Source of the DNA: Anaerolineae bacterium
GTDB taxonomy: Bacteria; Chloroflexota; Anaerolineae; Anaerolineales; UBA4823
Reading direction: 5' to 3'
Length of the DNA stretch: 64,000 nucleotides
Assembly (NCBI GenBank): GCA_003130835.1
Contig: QEXX01000120.1
Location: 23,997-87,996 of the forward strand
Shown: piece after piece, positions 53,771 to 63,916 of the stretch
Layout: each line of letters starts with the position of its first letter
Numbering within the stretch: position 1 is the first letter of the stretch
The notes under the pieces: generated by a model
Seen by the model: the letters and a program-made list of their open reading frames with translations, nothing else
What the model was told of the DNA's origin: nothing
The model's database searches: none
Made by a program: the position numbers and the translations under genes

Positions 53771-55255
53771 TTGCCAAAAGGTTGTATACTTGTTGTAACT
53801 GCTACGAATTTGGAGTGTAAAGTGGTGCTAAATCCAGTCCAAGTCTCGAATGTTCTGGGTACCCAACAGAACATATCCCTCAACGAGATAGATCGCCTCG
53901 ACGAGCAGCTCTTTCAGCGGTTCAAAAGCAGGTTCGTCATCCAGCCCTCACTCTCTCGTCTTCTAGTCAGCTTTCAGGCCAATAAGACCAGACCCGTTTA
54001 TCGCTGGTACAGGTTCAAAGAAGCATTCTCTGCTTCTTTAGTGGAACATCTATTTCACAAATACGGAATTACCGCGGGCAGAATCCTAGATCCTTTCGCA
54101 GGAAGCGGAACGGCTCTGTTCGCAGCAAGCGCAATGGGCATAAACGCAGATGGCATAGAGCTGTTACCGATCGGTCACCAGATCATTACGGCCAAACAAA
54201 TTCTGGATGCAGAGTTCACACCCGAAGATTTTGAAAGATTACGCCAATGGGCAGAAATGCGGGTTTGGGAGCAGTCAGAAACGCGTTTCCCCTTACCAGA
54301 ACTGCGGATCACACAAGGAGCTTACCCTGACAGAACAAAGGAAGCCATTGAGAAATATTTGGGTGCATGTCAACAAGAGAATCGCAGAGTTCAGACCGTC
54401 TTGCGCTTTGCTTTACTCTGTGTCTTGGAGTCTATCAGTTTTACCCGCAAGGACGGCCAATATCTTCGGTGGGACTATCGGTCGGGACGCACCCATGGCA
54501 AAAAGATTTTTGACAAAGGGAACATTCCCAGTTTCGAACAAGCCATTTACGAGAAAATCAACGAAATTCTAGCCGATGTATCGCCCACTCACCAAGCCGG
54601 TTTATTCCCTACCGAAAAACTTCAGGGCGAAATTCGTTTGTACGATGGCTCATGCCTTCACATATTACCTACGTTGCCTGATGGGAACTATGATGCCATC
54701 ATGACCTCCCCGCCCTACTGCAACCGCTATGATTACACCCGCACGTATGCGTTGGAACTGGCATTACTGGGGACGAATGAACAAGGGTTGGTGAAACTCC
54801 GCCAGGAGATGCTCAGTTGCACGGTGGAAAACCGCGCTAAAGATCTGTTGGGTATTAATCCGCGGTGGATCACTGCATTGGCTGCTGCCGATAAGCAGAC
54901 GCTGTTACAGGCGATCCTGAAATACCTGGAAGACCAGAAAGCCCAAGGCGCTTTGAACAACAACGGCATTCCCAGGATGGTGAGGGGCTATTTTTACGAG
55001 ATGGCTTGTGTCATTTCAGAGTGTGCGCGTGTCTTGCAACCGAATGCGCTGCTATTGATGGTGAACGACAATGTACGCTATGCGGGCGCAAGTATTTCGG
55101 TGGATATGATACTCTCTGATATTGCTGAACAATTGGGTTTTCGCGTTGAGAATATTCTCGTTTTACCAGACGGCAAGGGCAACAGCAGTCAGCAGATGGG
55201 CGAGCATGGGCGAAAAGCTTTGCGCAAATGCGTGTACGTCTGGAGAAAATTATGA
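53771..55255 (+). CDS. Amino (N6A/N4C) DNA methyltransferase, intact paralog of the 30534 gene
   Basis: Motif [12 protein letters not shown] and motif [14 protein letters not shown] with a gap of about 200 aa between them. The likely true start is GTG 53822, preceded by GGAG. Confidence 0.85.
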
Positions 55256-56211
55256 TGCCCTCGCGCCCTTACCAAAACCATCTCCGCTCTAGCAATGACC
55301 TCGTAACGACTTACGAAGCCACGCGTGCAGGCTTTGTCGCACTTGCGCTTGAAAAGAATCGTCGCGCTACGCCTTACGTTGCCGAAGCGAGAGCATTACA
55401 AGAAGCCGCATCAAGGGCTAGAACCCCTGCTGACTTGCTGAGCATCAGGGGCATAGAATCGGGTCTCCTCACAGCGGCAGGATTGTCCGATAAAGCTCTC
55501 GTTCATTTACAGCCAGAAGATAAAAGGGAAGCCATCACTAATCTTATCAAGAACTTCCTCGATCCGGCAGGAGAAAAGTTTGTAGAGGAGCTGGTGTTCA
55601 GGTTTCTATTGACACGCGGCGACACGCTTGGCGGTTCAATGCGTAACATTGGCGGCGTCCTGGCACAGAGAAAACTTACTCGTGCCATCGTTTCCACCCT
55701 GACAATTGCTGGCATTCGATACCGCTGGCAACACGCCAAGACCAGACAATGGGTTGATATGACCGATGATGACTCGGAAATCGAGTTTTCTCTACGGGGA
55801 TTGAGTTGGGAAAGCGAAGGTAAGCCGCGCACCCTGATTTACAACTTGAGCGTGCCTTTGGTTAAGAACAATATAGATTTGTGCTTGTTCGATCTCAGTC
55901 CTGACGAATTGCAAGCCACCAGGTACAAATCAGCCCGGTCTTATATTGCTCTTGGCGAACTCAAAGGCGGAATAGACCCCGCAGGCGCAGATGAGCATTG
56001 GAAAACTGCGCGAGCGGCACTTGACCGTATCCGTGAAGTGTTTGCCAACGTGAGCCATTCCCCGTATCTCTTTTTTATTGGTGCGGCGATTGAGAAGAGA
56101 ATGGCCACTGAGATTTGGGATCAATTGGAAAAGGGAGTGCTCACAAACGCTGCCAATTTGAACGATCCGAACCAAATTGCATCAGTTTCTCGTTGGCTAT
56201 GTATGCTGTAA
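55252..56211 (+). CDS. Putative type II restriction endonuclease (PD-(D/E)xK-like)
   Basis: ATGA overlap with the methyltransferase stop. The candidate catalytic pattern is IDLCLFD ... [10 protein letters not shown]. No family recognised. Confidence 0.5.
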
Positions 56212-56222
56212 TCGATATGGCC

Positions 56223-56293
56223 GCCCAACAAGCGTTTCCAGCCGACCCGCTCCGCTTCGCTACGCGGGCGGCTGGAAACGCAGGCCGTTAGCC
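56223..56293 (+). other. attC-like recombination site 2
   Basis: R'' GCCCAAC (56223-56229), L'' GCGTTTCCAGCCG, L' CGGCTGGAAACGC (a perfect 13-bp dyad), and R' GTTAGCC (56287-56293). Confidence 0.65.
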
Positions 56294-56326
56294 CGCCTTT
56301 CCGAATCTAGGTGGTAAAATACACAA

Positions 56327-57109
56327 ATGGATAAAAACGATTTTCTGACCGCGCTTCAGACGGAAGTAGCAATGTTTAATTCGGCGGTTTCCACTCCAAA
56401 TGGCGACTGGATTATCAAGGGATTTATTGATATAGCCAAGAACATTTACACTATTTCAGTGGACACAAAAGTTATCTCAAAAATCATGGAACTTTTGTTG
56501 TTCCCAGAACTTGCACGCTTTGCTGAAAAACACGGCTTAAAAATGGTGTTGTCCGAACAACAGAACTCCTATCCAGACATAAGTTTTGTGGATGATGAGG
56601 GTCATCGCTTCGCACTCGACTTGAAAAGCACTTACAGAGTTGATGGCAATCGTGTGAACGGTATGACACTTGGAGCTTTTACTGGATATTTCCGAGAAAG
56701 GAATAGCACAAAAAATATAACCTTTCCTTACGGTTCTTATATGGGTCATTTCGTTTTGGGCGTAATCTATTCAAAAACAGATGATTTGATTGATGAGCGA
56801 AGAAGATACACCCTTAATGAACTTGAGCGGATTACATCTGTTATCAAGGACTTCCAGTTCTTTGTTCAAGAGAAATATCGCATCGCATCTGACCGCCCAG
56901 GAAGTGGCAACACCAAAAACATTGGTTCAGTCACGGAGATTGATAAACTTGTAAATGGCGCTGGACCATTTGCTTCATTAGGGGAAGATGTTTTTGATGA
57001 CTACTGGATGTATTATTTGACCAAAGATATGGCAAGAGCAGCGGAACTGAAACGACCGCCTTACACTAATTTGCGTAGTTATTTAAAATACAAAGGTTTG
57101 TCAAAGTGA
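56327..57109 (+). CDS. EcoRV-like type II restriction endonuclease
   Basis: Matches my recollection of R.EcoRV along its whole length: DTKVISKIMEL, AEKHG, QQNSYPD (EcoRV QQNHYPD, D74), FALDLKSTY (EcoRV IAIDIKTTY, D90/K92) and GSGNTKNIGS (EcoRV GSGNTTNIGS). Confidence 0.85.
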   Translation: MDKNDFLTALQTEVAMFNSAVSTPNGDWIIKGFIDIAKNIYTISVDTKVISKIMELLLFPELARFAEKHGLKMVLSEQQNSYPDISFVDDEGHRFALDLKSTYRVDGNRVNGMTLGAFTGYFRERNSTKNITFPYGSYMGHFVLGVIYSKTDDLIDERRRYTLNELERITSVIKDFQFFVQEKYRIASDRPGSGNTKNIGSVTEIDKLVNGAGPFASLGEDVFDDYWMYYLTKDMARAAELKRPPYTNLRSYLKYKGLSK

Positions 57110-58047
57110 TTAACCAGGGTTTGCCGCGTACAGTAAAACGAGTCATCGTCCCTCCAATAAAGTGTCAGGGAATTAAAACTAAACTTGTCAAATTCATCTT
57201 GAGTAACATTTCCTGGAATGGCAAAGGGCGGTGGATAGAACCGTTTCTTGGATCAGGCGTAGTGTTGTTCAATGTCCAGCCAGAACGCGCATTACTCAAT
57301 GATGTTAATCCTCACATCATCAGGTTATACCAGATGATTTATGATGGAAATCTGTCGCCTGAACAAGTAAGGTCATACTTGACCGCAGAAGGCAAAATGT
57401 TATTGTCAAAGGGCGGAGATTATTATTATGCGGTCAGAGAACGTTTCAATAGAACTGGAGACCCTTTAGATTTTATTTTCCTCAACAGGTCGTGCTTCAA
57501 TGGAGTCATGCGTTTTAACAGCAAGGGTGAATTCAATGTTCCGTTTTGTCGTAAGCGAGATCGCTTTCGTCAAGCCTACGTAACCAAGATAGTAAATCAA
57601 ATTTCTCAAATACATAAAATTATGCAAGGCAAAGATTGGGAATTTCGTGCTGGAGACTGGCGAGAAGTTCTTATGGATGTAGATATAAATGACTTTGTTT
57701 ATCTTGACCCGCCCTACATTGGCAGGCATACAGATTACTATCAACAGTGGTCAGAAGACGACGCGGCAGATTTAGCAAGAATTGCTCGAAACTTGCCATG
57801 TGGTTTTGCGCTGTCTATGTGGAAAGAAAACAAGTATCGTCTAAATCAGCACATTGCTTCCTACTGGGATGGGCTAATAGAAAGAACATTTACTCATTTT
57901 TATCACGTAGGTTCAACAGAAAATCTTAGAAATTCAATGGAAGAAGCCCTATTGATAAAACCTGGTTATGAGACAGTGCTTATTGAGACTGCAAAATCTG
58001 ATAAGCCCATCCAATTGGCGTTTGCCTTACATGAACAGGCAGGCTAA
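57106..58047 (+). CDS. Dam-family (D12 class, alpha) N6-adenine DNA methyltransferase
   Basis: EPFLGSGVVLFN (motif I), NRSCFNG, and YLDPPYIG (motif IV). The GTG start overlaps the REase stop (GTGA). Confidence 0.9.
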   Translation: MINQGLPRTVKRVIVPPIKCQGIKTKLVKFILSNISWNGKGRWIEPFLGSGVVLFNVQPERALLNDVNPHIIRLYQMIYDGNLSPEQVRSYLTAEGKMLLSKGGDYYYAVRERFNRTGDPLDFIFLNRSCFNGVMRFNSKGEFNVPFCRKRDRFRQAYVTKIVNQISQIHKIMQGKDWEFRAGDWREVLMDVDINDFVYLDPPYIGRHTDYYQQWSEDDAADLARIARNLPCGFALSMWKENKYRLNQHIASYWDGLIERTFTHFYHVGSTENLRNSMEEALLIKPGYETVLIETAKSDKPIQLAFALHEQAG

Positions 58048-58204: not shown

Positions 58205-58567
58205 ATGGAGCGCACGATGCTTATTGCCGCCAATCCCAAGACCGGTGAGTTGAAAGCCAAACTCTTTCGTGGCTTTTCTGACCCGTCACGCCTTGCCATT
58301 CTGGAAGCATTGCGGGATGGGGCGCTCACCGTAAGCGAAATCGTACAAGCCACCGGCTTAACCCAATCAAACGTATCCAATCATCTCGGTTGTTTGCGCG
58401 ATTGCGGACTTGTCACTGCTGAACAGCAAGGGCGCTTTGTTCGCTATGCATTGAGTGATGAGCGTGTTGGACAACTACTCCGCCTTGCGGATGAACTCCT
58501 CGCCGAGGTCGCCAAAGGCGTTTACGAATGCACACGCTATAACGCTAAGGAGTCCAACCATGGTTAA
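58205..58567 (+). CDS. ArsR/SmtB family metal-responsive repressor
   Basis: LFRGFSDPSRLAILEAL...LTVSEIVQATGLTQSNVSNHLGCLRDCGLV is the classic ArsR winged HTH, here with a CxxxC next to it. Confidence 0.9.
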   Translation: MERTMLIAANPKTGELKAKLFRGFSDPSRLAILEALRDGALTVSEIVQATGLTQSNVSNHLGCLRDCGLVTAEQQGRFVRYALSDERVGQLLRLADELLAEVAKGVYECTRYNAKESNHG

Positions 58568-60671
58568 ACTGCAAACCTTGGAAGTCTCCGTCAAAGGCAT
58601 GGACTGTGCCGAATGCGCTCAGCATGTTCAACATGCCATCGCCAAGTTACCCGGCGTGGAGTCCGTCAACGTTTTGCTTGCCACTGAGAAAGCCATCATT
58701 CGGTTTGACCCTGACAAAGTGGACTTAAGCGCTATTCGCAAAGCCGTTGCCAGCGCAGGTGATTATTCCGTTCCTGAAACTACCCCATCAACCGCCGCCC
58801 CGCCGATGGGTGATGCTTCGACAATCTCAGCCCAAGCCTTCAACTGGCAATTGGTTCTATTACTGGCTGGTGTGTTTAGCGTTGTAGTATCCATTGTCGT
58901 TGTGGGCGAATGGCTAGGAATGTTCGAGATACTCAATGAACTTGTGCCGTTCCCTATTGGAGTTGCCATTGTACTTATGGGCGGTTTGCCTGTCTTTCGC
59001 AAAGTGATTCGCGCCACGCTCAAACGGCAAATCATCTCGCATACGCTCATGACCATCGGCGCAATGGCGGCGTTGGCTGTTGGTGAATGGGTCACAGCCG
59101 CGATTGTCGTTGTGTTTATGCGCGTGGGCGAGTACGTCGAAAACTTCACCACCGCAAGCGCCCGCCGCGCCGTGAAAGAATTGACCGCTATCGCGCCGCA
59201 AACAGCCCGCGTGGAGCGCGACGGCGCAGAAGCAGAAGTGCCAGTAGCAGAAGTGAAAGTTGGAGAAATCGTGATTGTCCGCCCTGGCGAAAAGATTCCG
59301 ATAGATGGCGAAGTCATTGCAGGACAAGCCACCATTGACCAAGCGGCTATCACTGGCGAGTCGATGCCCGTTGAAGTGGCAAGCGGTTCGCACGTTTTCG
59401 CCGCCACGATTGCGAAGTTGGGCAGCCTGCGCGTGAAGACTCTCAGTGTCGGCGCGGACACAACTTTCGGGCGTGTGGTCAAAATGGTGGAAGAAGCCGA
59501 AGCTCACCGGGCTGACGTTCAACGTTTCGCAGACAAATTCAGCGCATCCTATTTGCCCGTTGTCATTGGACTCGCCACGCTCACCTTTCTCATCAGCCGC
59601 AATCCGCTTTCCACTGCCGCCGTTCTGGTTGTAGCGTGTTCATGTTCCATCGCCTTAGCAACACCTATAGCAATGCTGGCGTCCATCGGCGCAAGTGCAA
59701 AGCGCGGCTTGCTGATCAAAGGCGGCAAGTATCTTGAGGCATTGGCGCATGCCGATGTTGTGTTGGTGGATAAAACCGGCACGCTGACACTCGGTCAACC
59801 GCAAATCACAGATGTCATCTCGCTCAACGGCTTGCCCACTTCCGAAGTCCTCGCCCTGGCCGCTGCCGCTGAACGCTACTCGGAGCATCCATTAGCCGCA
59901 GCCGTGCGCGCAGCCGCCCGCGCTCAAAATCTGTCACTCTCCGAACCACAAGATTTTGAAGCCATGCCCGGCCTAGGCGTTCGGGCAAGGGTGAACGGTA
60001 GTCTCGTAGCGGTTGGCAACCGCCGTCTGATTCCAGCGGCACAATCCTTGCCACTGGCTCAACAATTGGAAGGGCAAGGCAAGACGCTCTTATTTGTCGC
60101 CCAAAACGATCAACTTGTGGCAGTGCTTGCCGCCGCCGATGCGCTCCGTCCTGAAGTCCCTGGCGCCCTCGCCGAACTGCGCGCCCTTGGCATTAAGCAG
60201 ATTGAACTGCTCACAGGCGACAATCAACGCGCGGCCGCTGCGCTTGCCCAAAAACTGGGTGTTCAGTATCGCGCCAACCTTCTGCCCGAAAACAAGATTG
60301 AAGTTGTGAAGGACTACCAAGCCAAAGGGCATACGGTTGTAATGATCGGTGACGGCGTAAATGACGCGCCCGCATTGGCGCAATCCAATATCGGAATCGC
60401 AATGGGCGCGGCAGGCACAGACATTGCCCTTGAAGCGGCTCATGTGGCTCTAATGCGCGAAGACTGGTCTCTTGTGCCAGAAGTGATCCGCATTGCACGC
60501 CGAACGATGGGCATTGTGAAAATGAACCTGGCGTTTACGGCTGTCTATAATGTGGTGGGGTTGGCATTAGCGGCGCTTGGCATTTTGCCGCCTGTGCTTG
60601 CCGCTGCCGCACAATCGCTACCGGACTTAGGTATCCTCGCCAATTCAGCGCGGCTCCTGCGCCAAAAGTAA
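58560..60671 (+). CDS. Heavy-metal-translocating P1B-type ATPase
   Basis: N-terminal HMA domain GMDCAECA, TGES, DKTGTLT, GDGVNDAPAL. The TM6 motif reads CSC instead of CPC. Start ATG 58560 overlaps the arsR stop by 8 nt. Confidence 0.95.
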   Translation: MVKLQTLEVSVKGMDCAECAQHVQHAIAKLPGVESVNVLLATEKAIIRFDPDKVDLSAIRKAVASAGDYSVPETTPSTAAPPMGDASTISAQAFNWQLVLLLAGVFSVVVSIVVVGEWLGMFEILNELVPFPIGVAIVLMGGLPVFRKVIRATLKRQIISHTLMTIGAMAALAVGEWVTAAIVVVFMRVGEYVENFTTASARRAVKELTAIAPQTARVERDGAEAEVPVAEVKVGEIVIVRPGEKIPIDGEVIAGQATIDQAAITGESMPVEVASGSHVFAATIAKLGSLRVKTLSVGADTTFGRVVKMVEEAEAHRADVQRFADKFSASYLPVVIGLATLTFLISRNPLSTAAVLVVACSCSIALATPIAMLASIGASAKRGLLIKGGKYLEALAHADVVLVDKTGTLTLGQPQITDVISLNGLPTSEVLALAAAAERYSEHPLAAAVRAAARAQNLSLSEPQDFEAMPGLGVRARVNGSLVAVGNRRLIPAAQSLPLAQQLEGQGKTLLFVAQNDQLVAVLAAADALRPEVPGALAELRALGIKQIELLTGDNQRAAAALAQKLGVQYRANLLPENKIEVVKDYQAKGHTVVMIGDGVNDAPALAQSNIGIAMGAAGTDIALEAAHVALMREDWSLVPEVIRIARRTMGIVKMNLAFTAVYNVVGLALAALGILPPVLAAAAQSLPDLGILANSARLLRQK

Positions 60672-62978
60672 GGACGCATGAAAGGAAGCCGTCAAACATG
60701 AATTGCAGGCAGGTAGAGGAAGCGCCGTTTTCCACAGGGGTATCGCCTCGACGGGAAAAGCGGCGGCCATTGCTTGGCGCAGGCGTTTTTCGTCCATCCC
60801 GAACGGTTGCAGGAGGGTGCTGACGGCGCGCAGGAGCAGTTCCCGATAGCGGCGATAGTCCAATTCGGTTGGATGGGGGAGTGCGCCCAAATCCCAAGCG
60901 CGCACCCCGCTTTTTTCGCAGACATACCAGAAACGCACACATTGTCCTGCCATACGCAGTTTTCCTTGTGTTTGCAATTGCCTGGCGGCGCGGGCAGCCG
61001 CAGAGGGTTGACGATATTCTTCAAGCGAGTGGCTTAGTTTCTGGGCAAGGAGCAACTTCTGAGGGGGGACGGCGCCGCGCTTAAGCGCTTCCAATGAGGC
61101 GCGCACAAATTGGATCACATCGGGAATCTGCTCAGCCGCGCTGGTGGCGTCGGGGGCGGCGGCCAGGTGCTCCAAAATTGCCTGTTGCACCTCGGCGATC
61201 CAAAGCGGGGTATCGCGGCGGCGCAGTTCCAAGCCGCGCACTTTCAAGGAACCATCTTGGAAAACGCCAAAATAGCGATTGGGCACCGCGATACGCTCGT
61301 CCCGACGGGAGGGGAGAAAGGCAATCCAACGGTAAATCCCTTCCAAGACAATCGGCAAGCCGGTTCGCCGAGTGATCTCATCCAACAGGGGTTGAAAATC
61401 CGTCGCTTGCTCGGCGCCGCGTTTTTTGACCCATAACCCATCTACGTACAGGTGAAGCACTTCAAAGCCTTGCTGCTCGGCGGCTTCTTTGGCGCGCAGC
61501 AACGCTTCGCGCCCGTAGGCGGTTACAGCTTCATGAGCTTCGATACGCCCAAAGCGGGCGTTCTTGTAGCCCAAATAGCCAAAACAAGTGACCAACAGCC
61601 ACTTATGCGCCGAGGCGCAAGCCTGATATCGTTTGCGGCGCGGGTCATATTTCGGCAAGGTTGCCAGTCTTTTTTTGAGTTCCAGACGCTTTTCCAAGAG
61701 GGGAGAGAGCGTTTGCGGGATCAGGGCGGCTTGAGAAGCCTCGCTCAAGGGCTGCAGGTTCAAGACTGCCGAGCGCGTGTGTGCTGAGGAAGCGATGGTT
61801 TCGGGTGAGATGTTGAAGCGCGCCATGATGCTGGGGTACATGGAGACGAAATCCAATTCGGCAACGTGCTCGTGTAAGCCGGCAATGGGCTGATAGACCA
61901 GCCCCCCCTGATCGCTGGATAAGAGGTCGAGGGCGGTTTTGGGCAACTCGGCTTGCTGTTTATGCCATGGCACCAAAATATTCATCTGCAAAGCCGTGCG
62001 CATTTGCATGGCAGAGATGCCGCTGCCCGGCGAAAGGCGCGCCGCAGCTTGTAACGGTAAGCTGGTCACGCGCGCCATCTCCAAGATGCCCTCGATCCCA
62101 TAGTCGTGATAGAGAACGGCATTTTCGACATCAATGTGCCAACGTCCGAAGAGATAGGCTTGTCGCCCGCGGTGGATGACTTGCCCGTAGGAAAAATAGC
62201 TGCGCTGCGGCCGCCAAGCCACCCCGCGCTGCGGGTCGCGGCTGAGCGGCAGCCGAATGCCTAAGCGTTGTGCTAATCGCAGCAGATAAGGCATCAGCCA
62301 GGTGTCCCCCCAGCGGGTGAGCAACAGATCGGGATCGTGGCGTTGCAGAATGGCGCGTAAGTTGATCAGAAAAGGACGGCTGGGTTGCAATGCCAAACAA
62401 TAACGATAGCGACCGCTGCGCACGTGCAGGTAGGTGGGCGGGGCGTGGGCGGGGTCAACATCGGGTTCTACGTAGAGCATGCGCAGCGGCACAGGAGGCG
62501 CATCGATCTCCCAAGGGGTATCCAGCGTTTCCCAGTGCTGGATCAAACCCGCCGTGTCGATAGCTAAACGGCAGCGCGCCGCAGCAAACGACCCATAGCG
62601 TGCAGCATGACGCAGAGCGAGCGGCACATCGAGGTCGTAATACGTCAGATCGGGGAACACCTGCGTGAGACGCTGAACGAGCCGGGCATGGCTGGCTGCC
62701 TCTTGTACTTGCACCTTCAAAACGCTGATCGGTTGCGCTTGAAAAAGATCCCGCCGTTGGCAGGGTTCTAAATGCACTTGAAAAGGCTGGCGGCGCACAA
62801 AGCGCCCAACAGCGTCCAGCTCTTGTGCTCCTGCGCTCACGTAAGAGGTAATGGGAAAGCGCTGCTTCAGGGCACGGCAAACCACCCGCCCCTGCACGTC
62901 TGGCTGGAGCAGCCAAACGGTCAAAGTGCCTTCTTGGTTGGCATACAGATCCAAAAGCCAGCCTTCGATCTCATTCAT
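60645..62978 (-). CDS. Family B DNA polymerase, archaeal-like, with degenerate exonuclease motifs
   Basis: Motif A is ELDFVSMYPSI. Motif B is KWLLVTCFGYLGY (canonical KxxxNSxYG). Motif C is LHLYVDGLWV, with a single Asp instead of DTD, and VRGLELRRRD is present. The Exo I, II and III positions read LYVEPDV, WGDTWLMPYL and YGIEG, lacking the canonical acidic residues. Confidence 0.85.
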   Translation of the reverse strand: MNEIEGWLLDLYANQEGTLTVWLLQPDVQGRVVCRALKQRFPITSYVSAGAQELDAVGRFVRRQPFQVHLEPCQRRDLFQAQPISVLKVQVQEAASHARLVQRLTQVFPDLTYYDLDVPLALRHAARYGSFAAARCRLAIDTAGLIQHWETLDTPWEIDAPPVPLRMLYVEPDVDPAHAPPTYLHVRSGRYRYCLALQPSRPFLINLRAILQRHDPDLLLTRWGDTWLMPYLLRLAQRLGIRLPLSRDPQRGVAWRPQRSYFSYGQVIHRGRQAYLFGRWHIDVENAVLYHDYGIEGILEMARVTSLPLQAAARLSPGSGISAMQMRTALQMNILVPWHKQQAELPKTALDLLSSDQGGLVYQPIAGLHEHVAELDFVSMYPSIMARFNISPETIASSAHTRSAVLNLQPLSEASQAALIPQTLSPLLEKRLELKKRLATLPKYDPRRKRYQACASAHKWLLVTCFGYLGYKNARFGRIEAHEAVTAYGREALLRAKEAAEQQGFEVLHLYVDGLWVKKRGAEQATDFQPLLDEITRRTGLPIVLEGIYRWIAFLPSRRDERIAVPNRYFGVFQDGSLKVRGLELRRRDTPLWIAEVQQAILEHLAAAPDATSAAEQIPDVIQFVRASLEALKRGAVPPQKLLLAQKLSHSLEEYRQPSAAARAARQLQTQGKLRMAGQCVRFWYVCEKSGVRAWDLGALPHPTELDYRRYRELLLRAVSTLLQPFGMDEKRLRQAMAAAFPVEAIPLWKTALPLPACNSCLTASFHASLLLAQEPR

Positions 62979-63246
62979 TGGGTTCAGGCAAGCCAGATTG
63001 CAGGCTTTCCAAGTGTTGGCGCAGCGCCCTGACCTCTTTGTGTTCTTCCAAGAGCATGGCTAACAGAAACACCTCGAGGGGCAGGGCATGCGAGGCATAC
63101 GCTGCGGCGGCTAAGTGTTGGTGGGCACGCGCAAACAGGTCATCGAAAACCACTTGATCACTGCGCCGCAGGGCACGCCGAAAGCGCGCTAAGGCGCCTT
63201 GCTCTTCAAGAAAGGTCTGCGTGATGGAAGGATGGGTGCGTCCCAT
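62971..63246 (-). CDS. Small helical hypothetical protein (91 aa), middle gene of the PolB operon
   Basis: Its ORF overlaps the PolB start by 8 nt and begins 13 nt after the upstream stop. No motif recognised. Confidence 0.5.
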   Translation of the reverse strand: MGRTHPSITQTFLEEQGALARFRRALRRSDQVVFDDLFARAHQHLAAAAYASHALPLEVFLLAMLLEEHKEVRALRQHLESLQSGLPEPNE

Positions 63247-63258
63247 GTTAGCTCTCCT

Positions 63259-63792
63259 TTAGAACAAGCGAGATTGAAAGGCAGGCCGAGAAGGTCGCTC
63301 AATCTCCCACAGGGTTTGGGCGGCGGCTTGCAGCAGGTGCAGGAGATGCCCTTGCAGCGGCAAGTCCGCCGGGCTGGCGCTGACCAGGGTCGGCGCATTG
63401 CTGCTGAGGTGCTTGAGTTCGGCTAGGCAGTCCTGAAACAGTCTCAACCGCTCTGCTTGGGGAACGCTCTCGTCGCAAAACAAATCCGGCAGGTCGGTCA
63501 CCAGGCTGGGCAGACGCGTGTCGCGCTGGCAGCGCAACAGAGCTAGCACCTGATAAATGGTAAACGCGCGGGCAAGGCGAAGGCGTCCTAAAGCGGCTTC
63601 AAAGGCTTCGGTGTGATGGCGCAAGCGGCGGGCGATCTCGTGCGTGTGAAAGCGATTGCCGCACACCAGCACCTGCACCTCGCCGCGCAAAGCCAAGCGG
63701 GCGATGAACTCGTTCAAGAGCGGACGCTGGATGGCGCGCGGCGCCAGCAGGAGATAAAGATGACCTTTGGACAGTTCGGGCAGCAGTCTCAT
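63259..63792 (-). CDS. RecA/Rad51-fold protein lacking a Walker A P-loop (ImuA/SulA-like in architecture)
   Basis: GHLYLLLAPRAIQRPLL sits where GxxGxGK[ST] would be. ARAFTIYQVLALL resembles the Rad51 ARAYNxxHQxxLL helix. LPSLVTDLPDLF resembles a Walker B strand (hhhhD). Fold assignment is by eye only. Confidence 0.45.
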   Translation of the reverse strand: MRLLPELSKGHLYLLLAPRAIQRPLLNEFIARLALRGEVQVLVCGNRFHTHEIARRLRHHTEAFEAALGRLRLARAFTIYQVLALLRCQRDTRLPSLVTDLPDLFCDESVPQAERLRLFQDCLAELKHLSSNAPTLVSASPADLPLQGHLLHLLQAAAQTLWEIERPSRPAFQSRLF

Positions 63793-63817
63793 GCCCTGAG
63801 TCTCGCGCCAGACTCAT

Positions 63818-63831
63818 CGAACGACAATTCC
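63818..63831. promoter_or_regulatory. SOS-box-like site upstream of the PolB operon
   Basis: The minus strand reads GGAATTGTCGTTCG, one mismatch from the GAAC-N4-GTTC core of the Bacillus-type LexA box. It lies 26-39 nt upstream of the 63792 ATG. Confidence 0.3.
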
Positions 63832-63857
63832 ACTGCGGGTGAAATGGCGGGCGAAGG

Positions 63858-63871
63858 AACGGTTAACCGTT
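63858..63871. promoter_or_regulatory. Perfect 14-bp palindrome, candidate operator
   Basis: AACGGTTAACCGTT is its own reverse complement. It lies 66-79 nt upstream of the first gene of the PolB operon. Confidence 0.4.
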
Positions 63872-63916
63872 GGGTGATGGGGCAAAAAGGAGATGGGTGA
63901 AGAGGGCAAGGTATGG

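What the first reader, a model, noticed from the sequence alone, without database searches (positions are those of the whole stretch)
60645..63792. Candidate undescribed system: P-loop-less RecA-fold protein + 91-aa protein + exonuclease-dead family B DNA polymerase in one tight operon
There are three minus-strand genes with a 12-nt gap and an 8-nt overlap. Gene 1 (177 aa) has the strand-helix layout of a RecA/Rad51 core. It contains an ARAFTIYQVLALL helix like Rad51 ARAYNxxHQxxLL and a hydrophobic strand ending in Asp (LVTD) like Walker B. Where the GxxxxGK[ST] loop should be it reads LLLAPRAIQRPLL, so it is presumably not an ATPase. This is the same kind of degeneration seen in ImuA/SulA-type proteins. 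Gene 2 is a 91-aa, apparently all-helical protein with no recognisable motif. Gene 3 is a 777-aa archaeal-like PolB with a good motif A (DFVSMYPSI) and an RGLELRRRD segment. Its motif B is altered (KWLLVTCFGY versus KxxxNSxYG), its motif C has one Asp (YVDG versus YxDTDS), and all three 3'-5' exonuclease motifs lack their acidic residues. The architecture parallels the imuA-imuB-dnaE2 mutagenesis cassette (inactive RecA-like protein, adaptor, error-prone polymerase) but is built on a B-family polymerase. I know of no described bacterial system of this composition. Alternative roles are possible, including damage-tolerance synthesis, an anti-phage function given the adjacent R-M island, or a non-catalytic PolB scaffold like archaeal PolB2. 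The GC content matches the host and there is no integrase, tRNA or terminal repeat nearby, so it does not look like a pipolin or casposon.
Basis: partly seen in the sequence, partly recalled or inferred. Interest (0 to 1): 0.85.

Follow-up and report, generated by a model that had tools for sequence, protein, structure and literature searches.

The report
Known iRadA-PPB2-PolB2 translesion polymerase operon

Summary
There are three co-oriented minus-strand genes of 177, 91 and 777 aa, with a 12-nt gap and an 8-nt overlap. The 177-aa protein folds as a Rad51/RadA ATPase core (AlphaFold2 pLDDT 87; the top 50 PDB fold matches are all Rad51/RadA/DMC1). It has no P-loop. The 91-aa protein is a three-helix member of Pfam DUF8156 with an invariant N-terminal MGRT arm. 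The 777-aa protein is a B-family polymerase that keeps both metal-binding aspartates (D376, D513). It reads YVD where DTD is expected and has lost three of five exonuclease residues.

The novelty claim fails. This trio, in this order, is the iRadA-PPB2-PolB2 operon. Makarova et al. reported it in archaea and bacteria in 2014. Timinskas et al. modelled it in 2025 as a PolB2 mutasome, and their catalogue includes many Anaerolineae operons with the same HLYVDG motif. Of 80 genomic loci fetched through PPB2 alone, 77 have iRadA immediately upstream, and 73 of 76 evaluable loci have PolB immediately downstream. iRadA ends in QSRLF, which resembles the published beta-clamp motif.

The most likely function is translesion synthesis as a mismatch extender, inferred from archaeal Dpo2 experiments. 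About half of the related operons carry a LexA-type box. The window's clade does not. The neighbouring restriction-modification island is an unrelated insertion.

The parts
63259..63792 (-). iRadA: a 177-aa Rad51/RadA-like ATPase core with no N-terminal domain and no P-loop. The Walker-B-like Asp (D100) is retained.
   Evidence: ORF. AlphaFold2 pLDDT 87.3. Foldseek top 50 are all Rad51/RadA/DMC1. Profile hit to P. furiosus RadA at 7e-6. An iRadA-family ORF lies immediately upstream of PPB2 in 77 of 80 loci.
63262..63276 (-). C-terminal pentapeptide QSRLF of iRadA (residues 173-177), a candidate beta-clamp-binding motif (canonical QLxLF).
   Evidence: 43 of the 79 iRadA-family ORFs examined (77 of the fetched loci plus the window's own two contigs) end in Qxx[LIMV][FLWY]. 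The closest relatives have QLRLF. Timinskas 2025 reports beta-clamp motifs at the C-terminus of bacterial iRadA. Binding was not tested.
62971..63246 (-). PPB2 (Pfam PF26485/DUF8156; formerly arCOG07300): a 91-aa three-helix protein.
   Evidence: More than 3,779 homologs, all carrying PF26485. The family is named DUF8156. AlphaFold2 predicts three helices at 8-25, 28-54 and 57-84.
63235..63246 (-). The N-terminal 'MGRT' arm of PPB2. In published models it inserts between PolB2 and iRadA, close to the DNA.
   Evidence: M1, G2, R3 and T4 are invariant in 18 aligned homologs. The motif is described in PMC11791011 section 3.3.1.
60645..62978 (-). PolB2: a 777-aa B-family DNA polymerase with a decayed exonuclease domain.
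   Evidence: PF00136. NF004416 at 8.5e-114, below its cutoff. 49% identity over residues 1-399 to the catalogued Longilinea arvoryzae PolB2. 32% identity over 272 aa to A. fulgidus PolB2. hhalign to Pol II.
62295..62297 (-). L228, at the position of the Exo II catalytic Asp (Pfu D215 / Pol II D229).
   Evidence: Alignments to P. abyssi PolB and E. coli Pol II. Invariant Leu in 30 bacterial PolB2 sequences.
61902..61976 (-). Linker LVPWHKQQAELPKTALDLLSSDQGG (residues 335-359). It corresponds in position to the PolB2 beta-alpha loop plus the D(K/R) motif that bind iRadA and PPB2 in published models. The window reads D356-Q357.
   Evidence: P337, W338, K340, Q341, E344, K347, L352, D356, Q357, G358 and G359 are invariant in alignment A3. 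Archaeal PolB2 reads 'LVPW...DADRGG' at the same place. The interaction itself was not modelled here.
61827..61853 (-). Motif A, DFVSMYPSI (D376 is a catalytic metal ligand).
   Evidence: Aligns to LDFRSLYPSI of P. abyssi PolB and LDYKSLYPSI of Pol II. D376 is invariant.
61578..61604 (-). Motif B in its PolB2 form, K459-WLLVTCFG (canonical KxxxNSxYG). The Lys is kept; Asn becomes Val and Tyr becomes Phe.
   Evidence: The same KW[LM]LVTCFGY is found in A. fulgidus PolB2 and in catalogued bacterial PolB2.
61440..61448 (-). Motif C, Y511-V512-D513, in place of DTD. The first Asp is lost and the metal-ligand Asp is kept.
   Evidence: Invariant in A3. 'HLYVDG' / 'YVD' is listed for Anaerolineae PolB2 in the supplement of PMC11791011.
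63793..63916 (-). 124-nt upstream intergenic region. It contains a -35-like TTGTCG (63822-63827), a 17-nt spacer, a -10-like GAGACT (63799-63804) and then 6 nt to the ATG, which suggests a leaderless transcript. It also contains the palindrome AACGGTTAACCGTT (63858-63871). There is no conserved LexA box.
   Evidence: Sequence. Blocks conserved across the six closest relatives. 39 of 70 related loci have TAnnnT ending 5-8 nt before the start codon, against 3.3 of 70 in shifted controls. The consensus promoter scan finds nothing and there is no Rfam hit. The promoter assignment is an inference.

Best explanation
The three genes are a bacterial (Anaerolineales, Chloroflexota) copy of the iRadA-PPB2-PolB2 operon, the 'PolB2 mutasome'.

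Shown here:
- The gene order and tight coupling.
- The Rad51/RadA fold of gene 1, without ATPase motifs.
- Gene 2 belongs to the PPB2/DUF8156 family and has the MGRT arm.
- Gene 3 is a PolB2-type polymerase. It keeps both metal-ligand aspartates and the motif-B lysine. It has lost the first Asp of DTD and three of five exonuclease residues.
- The three genes co-occur almost without exception in other genomes.

Inferred from published AlphaFold models and archaeal experiments, not tested here:
- One PolB2, one iRadA and a PPB2 trimer assemble into a heteropentamer.
- PolB2 holds iRadA through a loop that mimics the Rad51 oligomerisation motif.
- The C-terminal QSRLF of iRadA tethers the complex to the beta sliding clamp.
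- The enzyme has no proofreading. It extends mismatched or lesion-paired primer ends during translesion synthesis, which allows survival of DNA damage at the cost of mutations.

In many relatives the operon sits behind a LexA-type operator and is therefore probably SOS-induced. In the window's own clade that operator is missing, so the regulation of this copy is unknown.
For: Anatomy.

Family identity of each gene:
- PolB.
- PPB2.
- iRadA.

Co-occurrence: a scan with PPB2 alone of one genome for each of 185,579 species gave 351 loci. Of the 80 loci fetched, 77 have an iRadA-profile ORF immediately upstream. 73 of the 76 loci with enough downstream sequence have PolB immediately downstream.

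Clamp motif.

Damage regulation in relatives: 16 of 76 loci have a perfect GAAC-N4-GTTC near the iRadA start, against about 2 expected. 37 of 76 have it with at most one mismatch, against about 11 expected. The box lies between the -35 and -10 elements.

Literature:
- Operon and complex model: PMC11791011.
- First report, including bacteria and lexA: PMC4104785.
- Bacterial PolB2 as a recognised group: PMC12926913.
- Dpo2 is damage-inducible and required for targeted mutagenesis: PMC7390963.
- Dpo2 is an active polymerase without exonuclease activity and a mismatch extender: PMC8764526.
Against: - I found no experiments on any bacterial PolB2 complex. The function is extrapolated from Sulfolobus.
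- The window's operon lacks the SOS box. Its only GAAC-N4-GTTC-like site has one mismatch, overlaps the -35 element rather than lying between -35 and -10, and its right half is not conserved in the five closest relatives. No lexA was found in the window or in any fetched locus.
- The published D(K/R) loop motif reads D-Q here.
- QSRLF departs from the canonical QLxLF at position 2.
- I could not model the multimer.
- I did not build a phylogeny against PolB1 and PolB3.
Confidence: 0.88

Rival explanations
1. The polymerase is catalytically dead, and the trio is a non-enzymatic scaffold or regulator, for example of replication initiation or fork processing. This is the older view of PolB2 and one of the first reader's alternatives.
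For: The first Asp of DTD is lost, and motif B has lost its Asn and Tyr. Makarova 2014 raised this possibility when PolB2 was thought to be inactive.
Against: The two metal-ligand aspartates (D376, D513), the motif-B Lys459 and R568-Y569 are invariant in 30 homologs. S. islandicus and S. solfataricus PolB2 have the same kind of DxD substitution (IID) and are robust polymerases (section 3.1 of PMC11791011).
Confidence: 0.06
2. The trio is an anti-phage or other defence module linked to the neighbouring restriction-modification island.
For: Two restriction-modification gene pairs lie 2.6-6.9 kb downstream of the polymerase. Cas1-Cas2 lies about 9 kb upstream, on the source contig beyond the window edge.
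Against: PADLOC has no match for iRadA or PPB2, and only an incidental PolB match to a homing-endonuclease model. In the closest relatives the upstream synteny is kept, but the ATPase and restriction-modification block is absent and is replaced by EamA and other genes. PPB2 occurs in only 2 of 2.9 million viral contigs. SOS boxes in relatives point to the DNA-damage response.
Confidence: 0.03
3. The trio is the replication module of a mobile element, such as a pipolin, a casposon or a prophage.
For: Self-replicating elements often carry B-family polymerases. One related locus (L015) has an integrase next to iRadA-PPB2.
Against: The window has no integrase, Cas1 or terminal repeats next to the operon. 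The flanking synteny is conserved in related genomes. In L015 the integrase replaces PolB, which looks like a disruption. There are almost no viral hits.
Confidence: 0.02
4. The polymerase is an ordinary Pol II ortholog whose motifs the reader misaligned by eye.
For: Some sources label homologs 'DNA polymerase II'.
Against: E. coli Pol II is only a weak match (1.7e-6 against 1.9e-44 for Thermococcales PolB). The profile alignment to Pol II confirms that D229, Y331, D335 and the first Asp of DTD are lost.
Confidence: 0.01

Closest known systems
Bacterial PolB2 operon type '1a (iRadA-PPB2-PolB2)', the PolB2 mutasome of Timinskas, Timinskas & Venclovas 2025 (PMC11791011). It was first noted by Makarova et al. 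2014 (PMC4104785).
   Same: Same three families in the same order and orientation. MGRT arm on PPB2. YVD in motif C and KWLLVTCFGY in motif B, as in the catalogued Anaerolineae entries. A decayed exonuclease domain. iRadA without an N-terminal domain or P-loop, and with a C-terminal QxxLF-type motif.
   Different: The loop motif reads D-Q instead of D-(K/R). There is no lexA, SRAP or DUF72 neighbour and no SOS box in this copy. The clamp motif is QSRLF rather than QLxLF.
Sulfolobus islandicus Dpo2 (archaeal PolB2) with its arCOG07300 and iRadA partners
   Same: Homologous trio. The polymerase keeps the second Asp of DxD only and lacks proofreading. It is the only member of the family with experimental data (damage-inducible, required for targeted mutagenesis, mismatch extender).
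   Different: The archaeal gene order is PPB2-PolB2-iRadA (type 3a). It uses PCNA rather than the beta clamp. The polymerase is shorter and its exonuclease domain is more decayed. Regulation is through Orc1/Cdc6-type factors rather than LexA.
E. coli Pol V mutasome (UmuD'2C-RecA)
   Same: Same architectural logic: a polymerase, a RecA/Rad51-family protein bound through an oligomerisation-like motif, a small subunit whose N-terminal arm lies near the active site, and clamp binding. Both are SOS-linked in many bacteria.
   Different: Pol V uses a Y-family polymerase, an active RecA with ATP, and a UmuD' dimer. The components are not homologous apart from the RecA superfamily.
ImuA-ImuB-DnaE2 mutagenesis cassette
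   Same: An inactive RecA-like protein, an accessory protein and an error-prone polymerase in one damage-response operon.
   Different: It uses a C-family polymerase, and ImuB is a Y-family pseudo-polymerase. The components are not homologous apart from the RecA fold. The literature compares PolB2 with Pol V and Pol zeta instead.
E. coli Pol II (PolB)
   Same: A bacterial B-family polymerase involved in damage tolerance as an extender.
   Different: Pol II is a single subunit with an intact exonuclease site (D156, E158, D229, Y331, D335) and intact DTD, and it carries its own clamp motif. It is only distantly related to the window protein.

Membership tests
PolB2 mutasome operon (iRadA-PPB2-PolB2) | Three adjacent co-oriented genes, in the bacterial order iRadA, PPB2, PolB2 | tested here: met
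   12-nt gap and 8-nt overlap on the minus strand. The same order is found in 73 of 76 evaluable PPB2-anchored loci.
PolB2 mutasome operon (iRadA-PPB2-PolB2) | PPB2: a helical protein of about 90 aa (three helices) with a conserved N-terminal MGRT arm | tested here: met
   PF26485/DUF8156. MGRT is invariant. Three helices are predicted after a free arm of 7 residues. Position 9 is Thr, as in S. islandicus.
PolB2 mutasome operon (iRadA-PPB2-PolB2) | iRadA: a Rad51/RadA core that lacks the N-terminal domain and the ATPase active-site residues | tested here: met
   The protein is 177 aa and the model begins at strand beta-1. The best fold matches are Rad51/RadA. A sequence profile finds RadA at 7e-6. 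There is no GK[ST], and the P-loop region is not conserved in alignment A5.
PolB2 mutasome operon (iRadA-PPB2-PolB2) | PolB2: the first Asp of the DxD motif is substituted and the second is kept | tested here: met
   Y511-V512-D513. Invariant in the family. Identical to the catalogued 'YVD' entries.
PolB2 mutasome operon (iRadA-PPB2-PolB2) | PolB2: the exonuclease active site is not intact | tested here: met
   Pol II D229 aligns to L228, Y331 to E285 and D335 to a gap. D156/E158 align to E171/D173. Loss of activity is inferred, not measured.
PolB2 mutasome operon (iRadA-PPB2-PolB2) | PolB2 belongs to the PolB2 clade (sister to PolB3) in a phylogeny | not tested
   No tree was built. Indirect support: 49% identity to the catalogued L. 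arvoryzae PolB2, a shared PolB2-type motif B with A. fulgidus PolB2, and a best PDB match to Thermococcales PolB rather than Pol II.
PolB2 mutasome operon (iRadA-PPB2-PolB2) | Conserved D(K/R) loop motif, preceded by a beta-alpha segment that binds iRadA | tested here: inconclusive
   The LVPW...helix...D356 segment is present and invariant, but the next residue is Gln rather than Lys or Arg in all 30 aligned relatives.
PolB2 mutasome operon (iRadA-PPB2-PolB2) | A C-terminal beta-clamp motif on iRadA or PolB2, rarely on both | tested here: met
   iRadA ends in QSRLF. Relatives end in QLRLF, QPRLF or QLTLL. The PolB2 C-terminus has no such motif. Only the sequence pattern was checked; binding was not tested.
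PolB2 mutasome operon (iRadA-PPB2-PolB2) | Assembly into a PolB2:iRadA:PPB2x3 heteropentamer | not testable with these tools
   Only monomer prediction was available.
PolB2 mutasome operon (iRadA-PPB2-PolB2) | Damage-inducible expression, or linkage to LexA | tested here: not met
   The window and the 10 kb beyond it on the source contig contain no lexA and no conserved SOS box. SOS boxes are strongly enriched in relatives. This feature is frequent in the family but does not define it: lexA is a neighbour in 108 of 1,823 catalogued neighbourhoods.
E. coli-type Pol II | Intact Exo I-III and DTD motifs in a single-subunit enzyme | tested here: not met
ImuA-ImuB-DnaE2 cassette | A C-family DnaE2 polymerase and a Y-family-like ImuB | tested here: not met
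   The polymerase is B-family. The 91-aa protein is DUF8156.

The most novel reading that the evidence does not exclude
In the window's clade of Anaerolineales, the PolB2 operon has left the LexA regulon. About half of the related operons have a GAAC-N4-GTTC operator between the -35 and -10 elements. This clade instead has a different, strongly conserved 110-nt upstream region with a GGTTAACC palindrome and a weak, leaderless-type promoter. It sits directly after a CHASE4-PAS-GAF-GGDEF-EAL sensor gene. If this reading is right, the copy would be controlled by an unidentified regulator, or expressed constitutively at a low level, rather than by DNA damage.
Probability: 0.25. Interest if true: 0.3.

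Novelty: already known. Interest (0 to 1): 0.15.

Why it matters
It matters little as a discovery. The operon family, its spread into bacteria, its partner proteins and a structural model have all been published, and Anaerolineae copies are already catalogued.

The residual value is practical. I found no experiments on any bacterial PolB2 complex. Chloroflexota carry many copies, including cultured strains such as Leptolinea tardivitalis, whose operon has clear SOS boxes. These would be good places to test three things: whether the complex assembles, whether it binds the beta clamp through iRadA, and whether it drives damage-induced mutagenesis in bacteria.

Tried and rejected
- Local Pfam, NCBIfam and PADLOC scans of the two small proteins gave nothing useful. 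The local Pfam copy lacks PF26485, which appeared only in the precomputed annotations.
- The word-indexed homolog search found only 20 iRadA relatives, which made the family look narrow. tblastn, BLASTP and a profile search on the PPB2-anchored loci showed that iRadA is present almost everywhere but evolves fast.
- I considered the window's GAATTGTCGTTC (63819-63830) as a degenerate LexA box. I rejected it because its right half is not conserved in close relatives and it lies in a different position from the true boxes.
- I considered the hairpin GAGTCT-N6-AGACTC just before the ATG. I rejected it because its left arm is not conserved.
- I looked at the C5-loop-G5 hairpins upstream of many relatives as possible regulatory RNA. 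They are followed by T-runs and are most simply terminators of the upstream gene.
- Rfam gave no match on the upstream region, and the sigma-70 consensus scan found no promoter in the operon or its upstream region.
- The exonuclease region could not be aligned to PDB polymerases with HMMER beyond Exo II. hhalign against E. coli Pol II solved this.


Full report
**1. The observation**

The ORF table shows the three minus-strand genes exactly as described.
- Gene 1: 63259-63792, 177 aa.
- Gene 2: 62971-63246, 91 aa.
- Gene 3: 60645-62978, 777 aa.
- A 12-nt gap separates genes 1 and 2. Genes 2 and 3 overlap by 8 nt.

The 3' end of gene 3 overlaps a convergent P-type ATPase gene by 27 nt. Gene 1 is preceded by a 124-nt intergenic region. 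On the same strand upstream lies a 1,228-aa sensor gene with CHASE4, HAMP, PAS and GAF domains.

**2. What each gene is**

*Gene 3.* It matches Pfam DNA_pol_B (5.6e-31). Its best NCBIfam match is NF004416, 'type B DNA-directed DNA polymerase' (8.5e-114, below the family cutoff). Among solved structures it is closest to Thermococcales PolB (1.9e-44). It is far from E. coli Pol II (1.7e-6).

A profile-profile alignment of 30 homologs against E. coli Pol II (hhalign probability 96.7, 589 columns) locates every motif:
- Motif A is intact (D376).
- Motif B is K459-WLLVTCFG. The Lys is kept; the canonical Asn and Tyr are replaced by Val and Phe.
- Motif C is Y511-V512-D513. The first Asp of DTD is lost and the metal-ligand Asp is kept.
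- The KKRY motif reads N567-R568-Y569.
- In the exonuclease domain, Pol II D156/E158 align to E171/D173. D229 aligns to L228. Y331 aligns to E285. D335 falls in a deletion.

L228, D376, K459 and Y511-V512-D513 are invariant in the 30 aligned homologs.

*Gene 2.* It has more than 3,779 homologs at 70-90% identity. All of them carry Pfam PF26485, which is named DUF8156. The first four residues, MGRT, are invariant. The monomer model has a free N-terminal arm followed by three helices.

*Gene 1.* It evolves fast; the word-indexed search found only 20 homologs. It nevertheless gives a confident model (pLDDT 87.3, pTM 0.82). All of its top 50 PDB fold matches are Rad51, RadA, DMC1 or Rad51 paralogs. 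A 69-sequence profile built from genomic neighbours also finds P. furiosus RadA by sequence (7e-6). That alignment begins after the P-loop. It covers the 'vaRaF' helix and the Walker-B strand. The sequence has no GK[ST].

**3. This is a published system**

A literature search led to Timinskas, Timinskas & Venclovas 2025 (PMC11791011). [quoted passage not shown]
- Bacteria have only the order iRadA-PPB2-PolB2.
- PPB2 carries a conserved 'MGRT' N-terminal arm and is modelled as a trimer.
- Most PolB2 sequences have lost the first Asp of DxD.
- None has an intact exonuclease site.
- Bacterial iRadA often ends in a beta-clamp motif.

The supplementary table lists Chloroflexota and Anaerolineae operons of type 1a. 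Their motif segment reads '...KMLLVCCFGYMGYKAAKFGRIESHEA...VLHLYVDGIWV / YVD', nearly identical to the window.

The window polymerase is 49% identical over residues 1-399 to the catalogued Longilinea arvoryzae PolB2. It is 32% identical over 272 aa to Archaeoglobus fulgidus PolB2, and the match includes the KWMLVTCFGY motif.

Makarova et al. 2014 (PMC4104785) had already reported the link between PolB2, arCOG07300 and inactivated RadA. They stated that the same three families are linked in bacterial genomes, sometimes together with lexA. A 2026 survey treats bacterial PolB2 as an established group (PMC12926913).

**4. An independent check of co-occurrence**

I scanned one genome for each of 185,579 species with PPB2 alone. 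This gave 351 loci, and the best 80 were fetched. Almost all are from Anaerolineales or other Chloroflexota.
- 77 of the 80 loci have an iRadA-profile ORF immediately upstream.
- Four loci are cut off too close to PPB2 to evaluate. Of the other 76, 73 have a PolB match immediately downstream.
- One locus (L082) has PolB 4 kb away.
- Two loci have no PolB. L015 has an integrase there instead, and L020 has a BNR-repeat protein.

The system is real. It is simply known.

**5. The clamp motif**

The window iRadA ends in QSRLF. Its closest relatives end in QLRLF or QPRLF. 43 of the 79 iRadA-family ORFs examined (77 of the fetched loci plus the window's own two contigs) end in Qxx[LIMV][FLWY] at the extreme C-terminus. 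The PolB2 C-terminus has no such motif. This fits the published pattern, in which the motif is found on iRadA or on PolB2 but rarely on both.

**6. Regulation and context**

*SOS boxes in relatives.* In the 360 nt around the iRadA start, 16 of 76 related loci have a perfect GAAC-N4-GTTC, against about 2 expected from the background density. 37 of 76 have it with at most one mismatch, against about 11 expected. The extended consensus is ATAGAACAnnTGTTCTAT. From general knowledge, this is the LexA box of Gram-positive bacteria and Dehalococcoides. I did not verify this for these genomes. The box lies between a -35-like TTGT.. and a -10 hexamer.

*Leaderless transcripts.* 39 of 70 loci have a TAnnnT hexamer ending 5-8 nt before the predicted start codon, and in 35 of them the distance is exactly 6 nt. 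Shifted control windows give 3.3 of 70 on average. Only 8 of 70 loci have a Shine-Dalgarno-like sequence. The operon therefore looks leaderless.

*The window's clade is different.* Its six members share a conserved upstream region that contains:
- GGTTAACC (in the window, the perfect palindrome AACGGTTAACCGTT at 63858-63871);
- TTGTCG at the -35 position;
- GAGACT 6 nt before the ATG.

No LexA box is conserved in this clade. The window's single one-mismatch site overlaps the -35 element, and its right half varies among relatives.

No lexA homolog was detected in the window or in any fetched locus.

*The restriction-modification island is unrelated.* The closest relatives keep the upstream synteny (periplasmic-binding protein, FecCD permease, ABC ATPase, NTPase, sensor). 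Downstream of PolB2 they have EamA and other genes instead of the window's ArsR regulator, P-type ATPase and two restriction-modification pairs. The restriction-modification island is therefore an unrelated insertion. PPB2 is almost absent from viral contigs (2 loci in 2.9 million contigs).

**7. Mechanism**

*Shown here:* the identities and the anatomy described above.

*Inferred from the literature:* the proteins form a PolB2:iRadA:PPB2x3 complex. PolB2 binds iRadA through a loop that mimics the Rad51 oligomerisation motif. In the window this loop is LVPWHKQQAELPKTALDLLSSDQGG, and it is invariant in relatives. It reads D-Q where the paper describes D-K/R. The MGRT arm of one PPB2 subunit reaches the cleft near the DNA. 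The complex rides on the beta clamp through the C-terminus of iRadA.

*Activity, by analogy with S. islandicus Dpo2:* Dpo2 is damage-inducible and solely responsible for targeted mutagenesis (PMC7390963). It is a robust polymerase without proofreading that extends mismatched and lesion-paired termini (PMC8764526). The bacterial enzyme is therefore most likely a translesion-synthesis extender. I found no experiments on bacterial PolB2.

**8. Verdict**

The functional analogy is reasonable. The novelty claim is refuted. This is an ordinary member of a described operon family. The only mildly unexplained point is the regulation of this clade, which lacks an SOS box.

Noticed in passing
window 63793-63916 (-); loci L083, L085, L087, L033, L027: The window's clade shares a strongly conserved upstream region of about 110 nt. 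The conserved blocks are TCACC, GGTTAACC, TTCTTC, ATTTCACCC, TGGAATTGTC and GCGCGAGACTCAGGGCATG. It has no LexA box, although about half of the related operons have one. GGTTAACC also occurs upstream of iRadA in L013, L053 and L069 (twice there). That is 5 of 76 loci against about 0.7 expected.
   Followed up: partly
loci L003-L082, just upstream of the predicted iRadA start codon: 39 of 70 loci have a TAnnnT hexamer ending 5-8 nt before the start codon (35 at exactly 6 nt). Shifted controls give 3.3 of 70. Only 8 of 70 have a Shine-Dalgarno-like sequence. The PolB2 operons of Anaerolineales look leaderless. The window has GAGACT at the same spacing.
   Followed up: partly
loci L014, L017, L025, L037, L044, L046, L050, L058, L060, L062, L065, L071, L073, L077, L078, L082 and others: LexA-type boxes (ATAGAAC-N4-GTTCTAT) lie between the -35 and -10 elements of the operon promoter. 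The Leptolinea loci (L065, L071, L077, L078) have two boxes.
   Followed up: partly
window 53771-58047 (+): Two restriction-modification gene pairs: an N6/N4 methyltransferase with a BsoBI-like endonuclease, and an EcoRV-like endonuclease with a Dam-like (MethyltransfD12) methyltransferase. GC drops to 0.42 at 56-58 kb. The block is absent from the equivalent position in the closest relatives, so it is probably a recent insertion.
   Followed up: partly
window 58205-60671 (+): An ArsR/MarR-type regulator and a heavy-metal P-type ATPase (HMA domain) run convergent to PolB2. Their 3' ends overlap by 27 nt. These genes are also absent at this position in relatives.
   Followed up: no
L001 1-825 (beyond the window edge, about 9 kb upstream of iRadA): Cas1 and Cas2 genes lie on the source contig (JGI 3300038964, Ga0401068_000078).
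   Followed up: no
loci L013, L016, L023, L024, L031, L034, L053, L056, L057, L061, L063, L064, L068, L076, L079, L080 (upstream of iRadA): The upstream gene ends in a conserved ...WDFS(A/Q)W* tail. At least in L013 it has a LuxR/GerE-like C-terminus (KKLGVHNRQELRKVL). This matches the GerE enrichment in Table S1 of Timinskas 2025 and may be a dedicated regulator. The window's clade has a GGDEF/EAL sensor gene at that position instead.
   Followed up: no
L015 6658-7632 (-); L020 6335-9103 (+): Two loci have iRadA-PPB2 without PolB. In L015 a tyrosine integrase follows PPB2. In L020 a 922-aa BNR/Asp-box protein follows it.
   Followed up: partly
L003 (JAIVTC010000114.1, labelled Candidatus Bathyarchaeota): This 3.8-kb contig carries an operon whose PPB2 is 75% identical and whose PolB is 57% identical to the window's. 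It is nearly identical to an Anaerolineales contig (L004). It is probably a bacterial contig mis-binned into an archaeal genome bin.
   Followed up: no
many loci, 20-130 nt upstream of iRadA (for example L004, L022, L026, L028, L029, L045, L067, L073): C5-loop-G5 hairpins followed by T-runs. They are most simply intrinsic terminators of the upstream gene. In some loci (L029, L030, L042, L045, L073) the G-run can pair with either of two C-runs.
   Followed up: no
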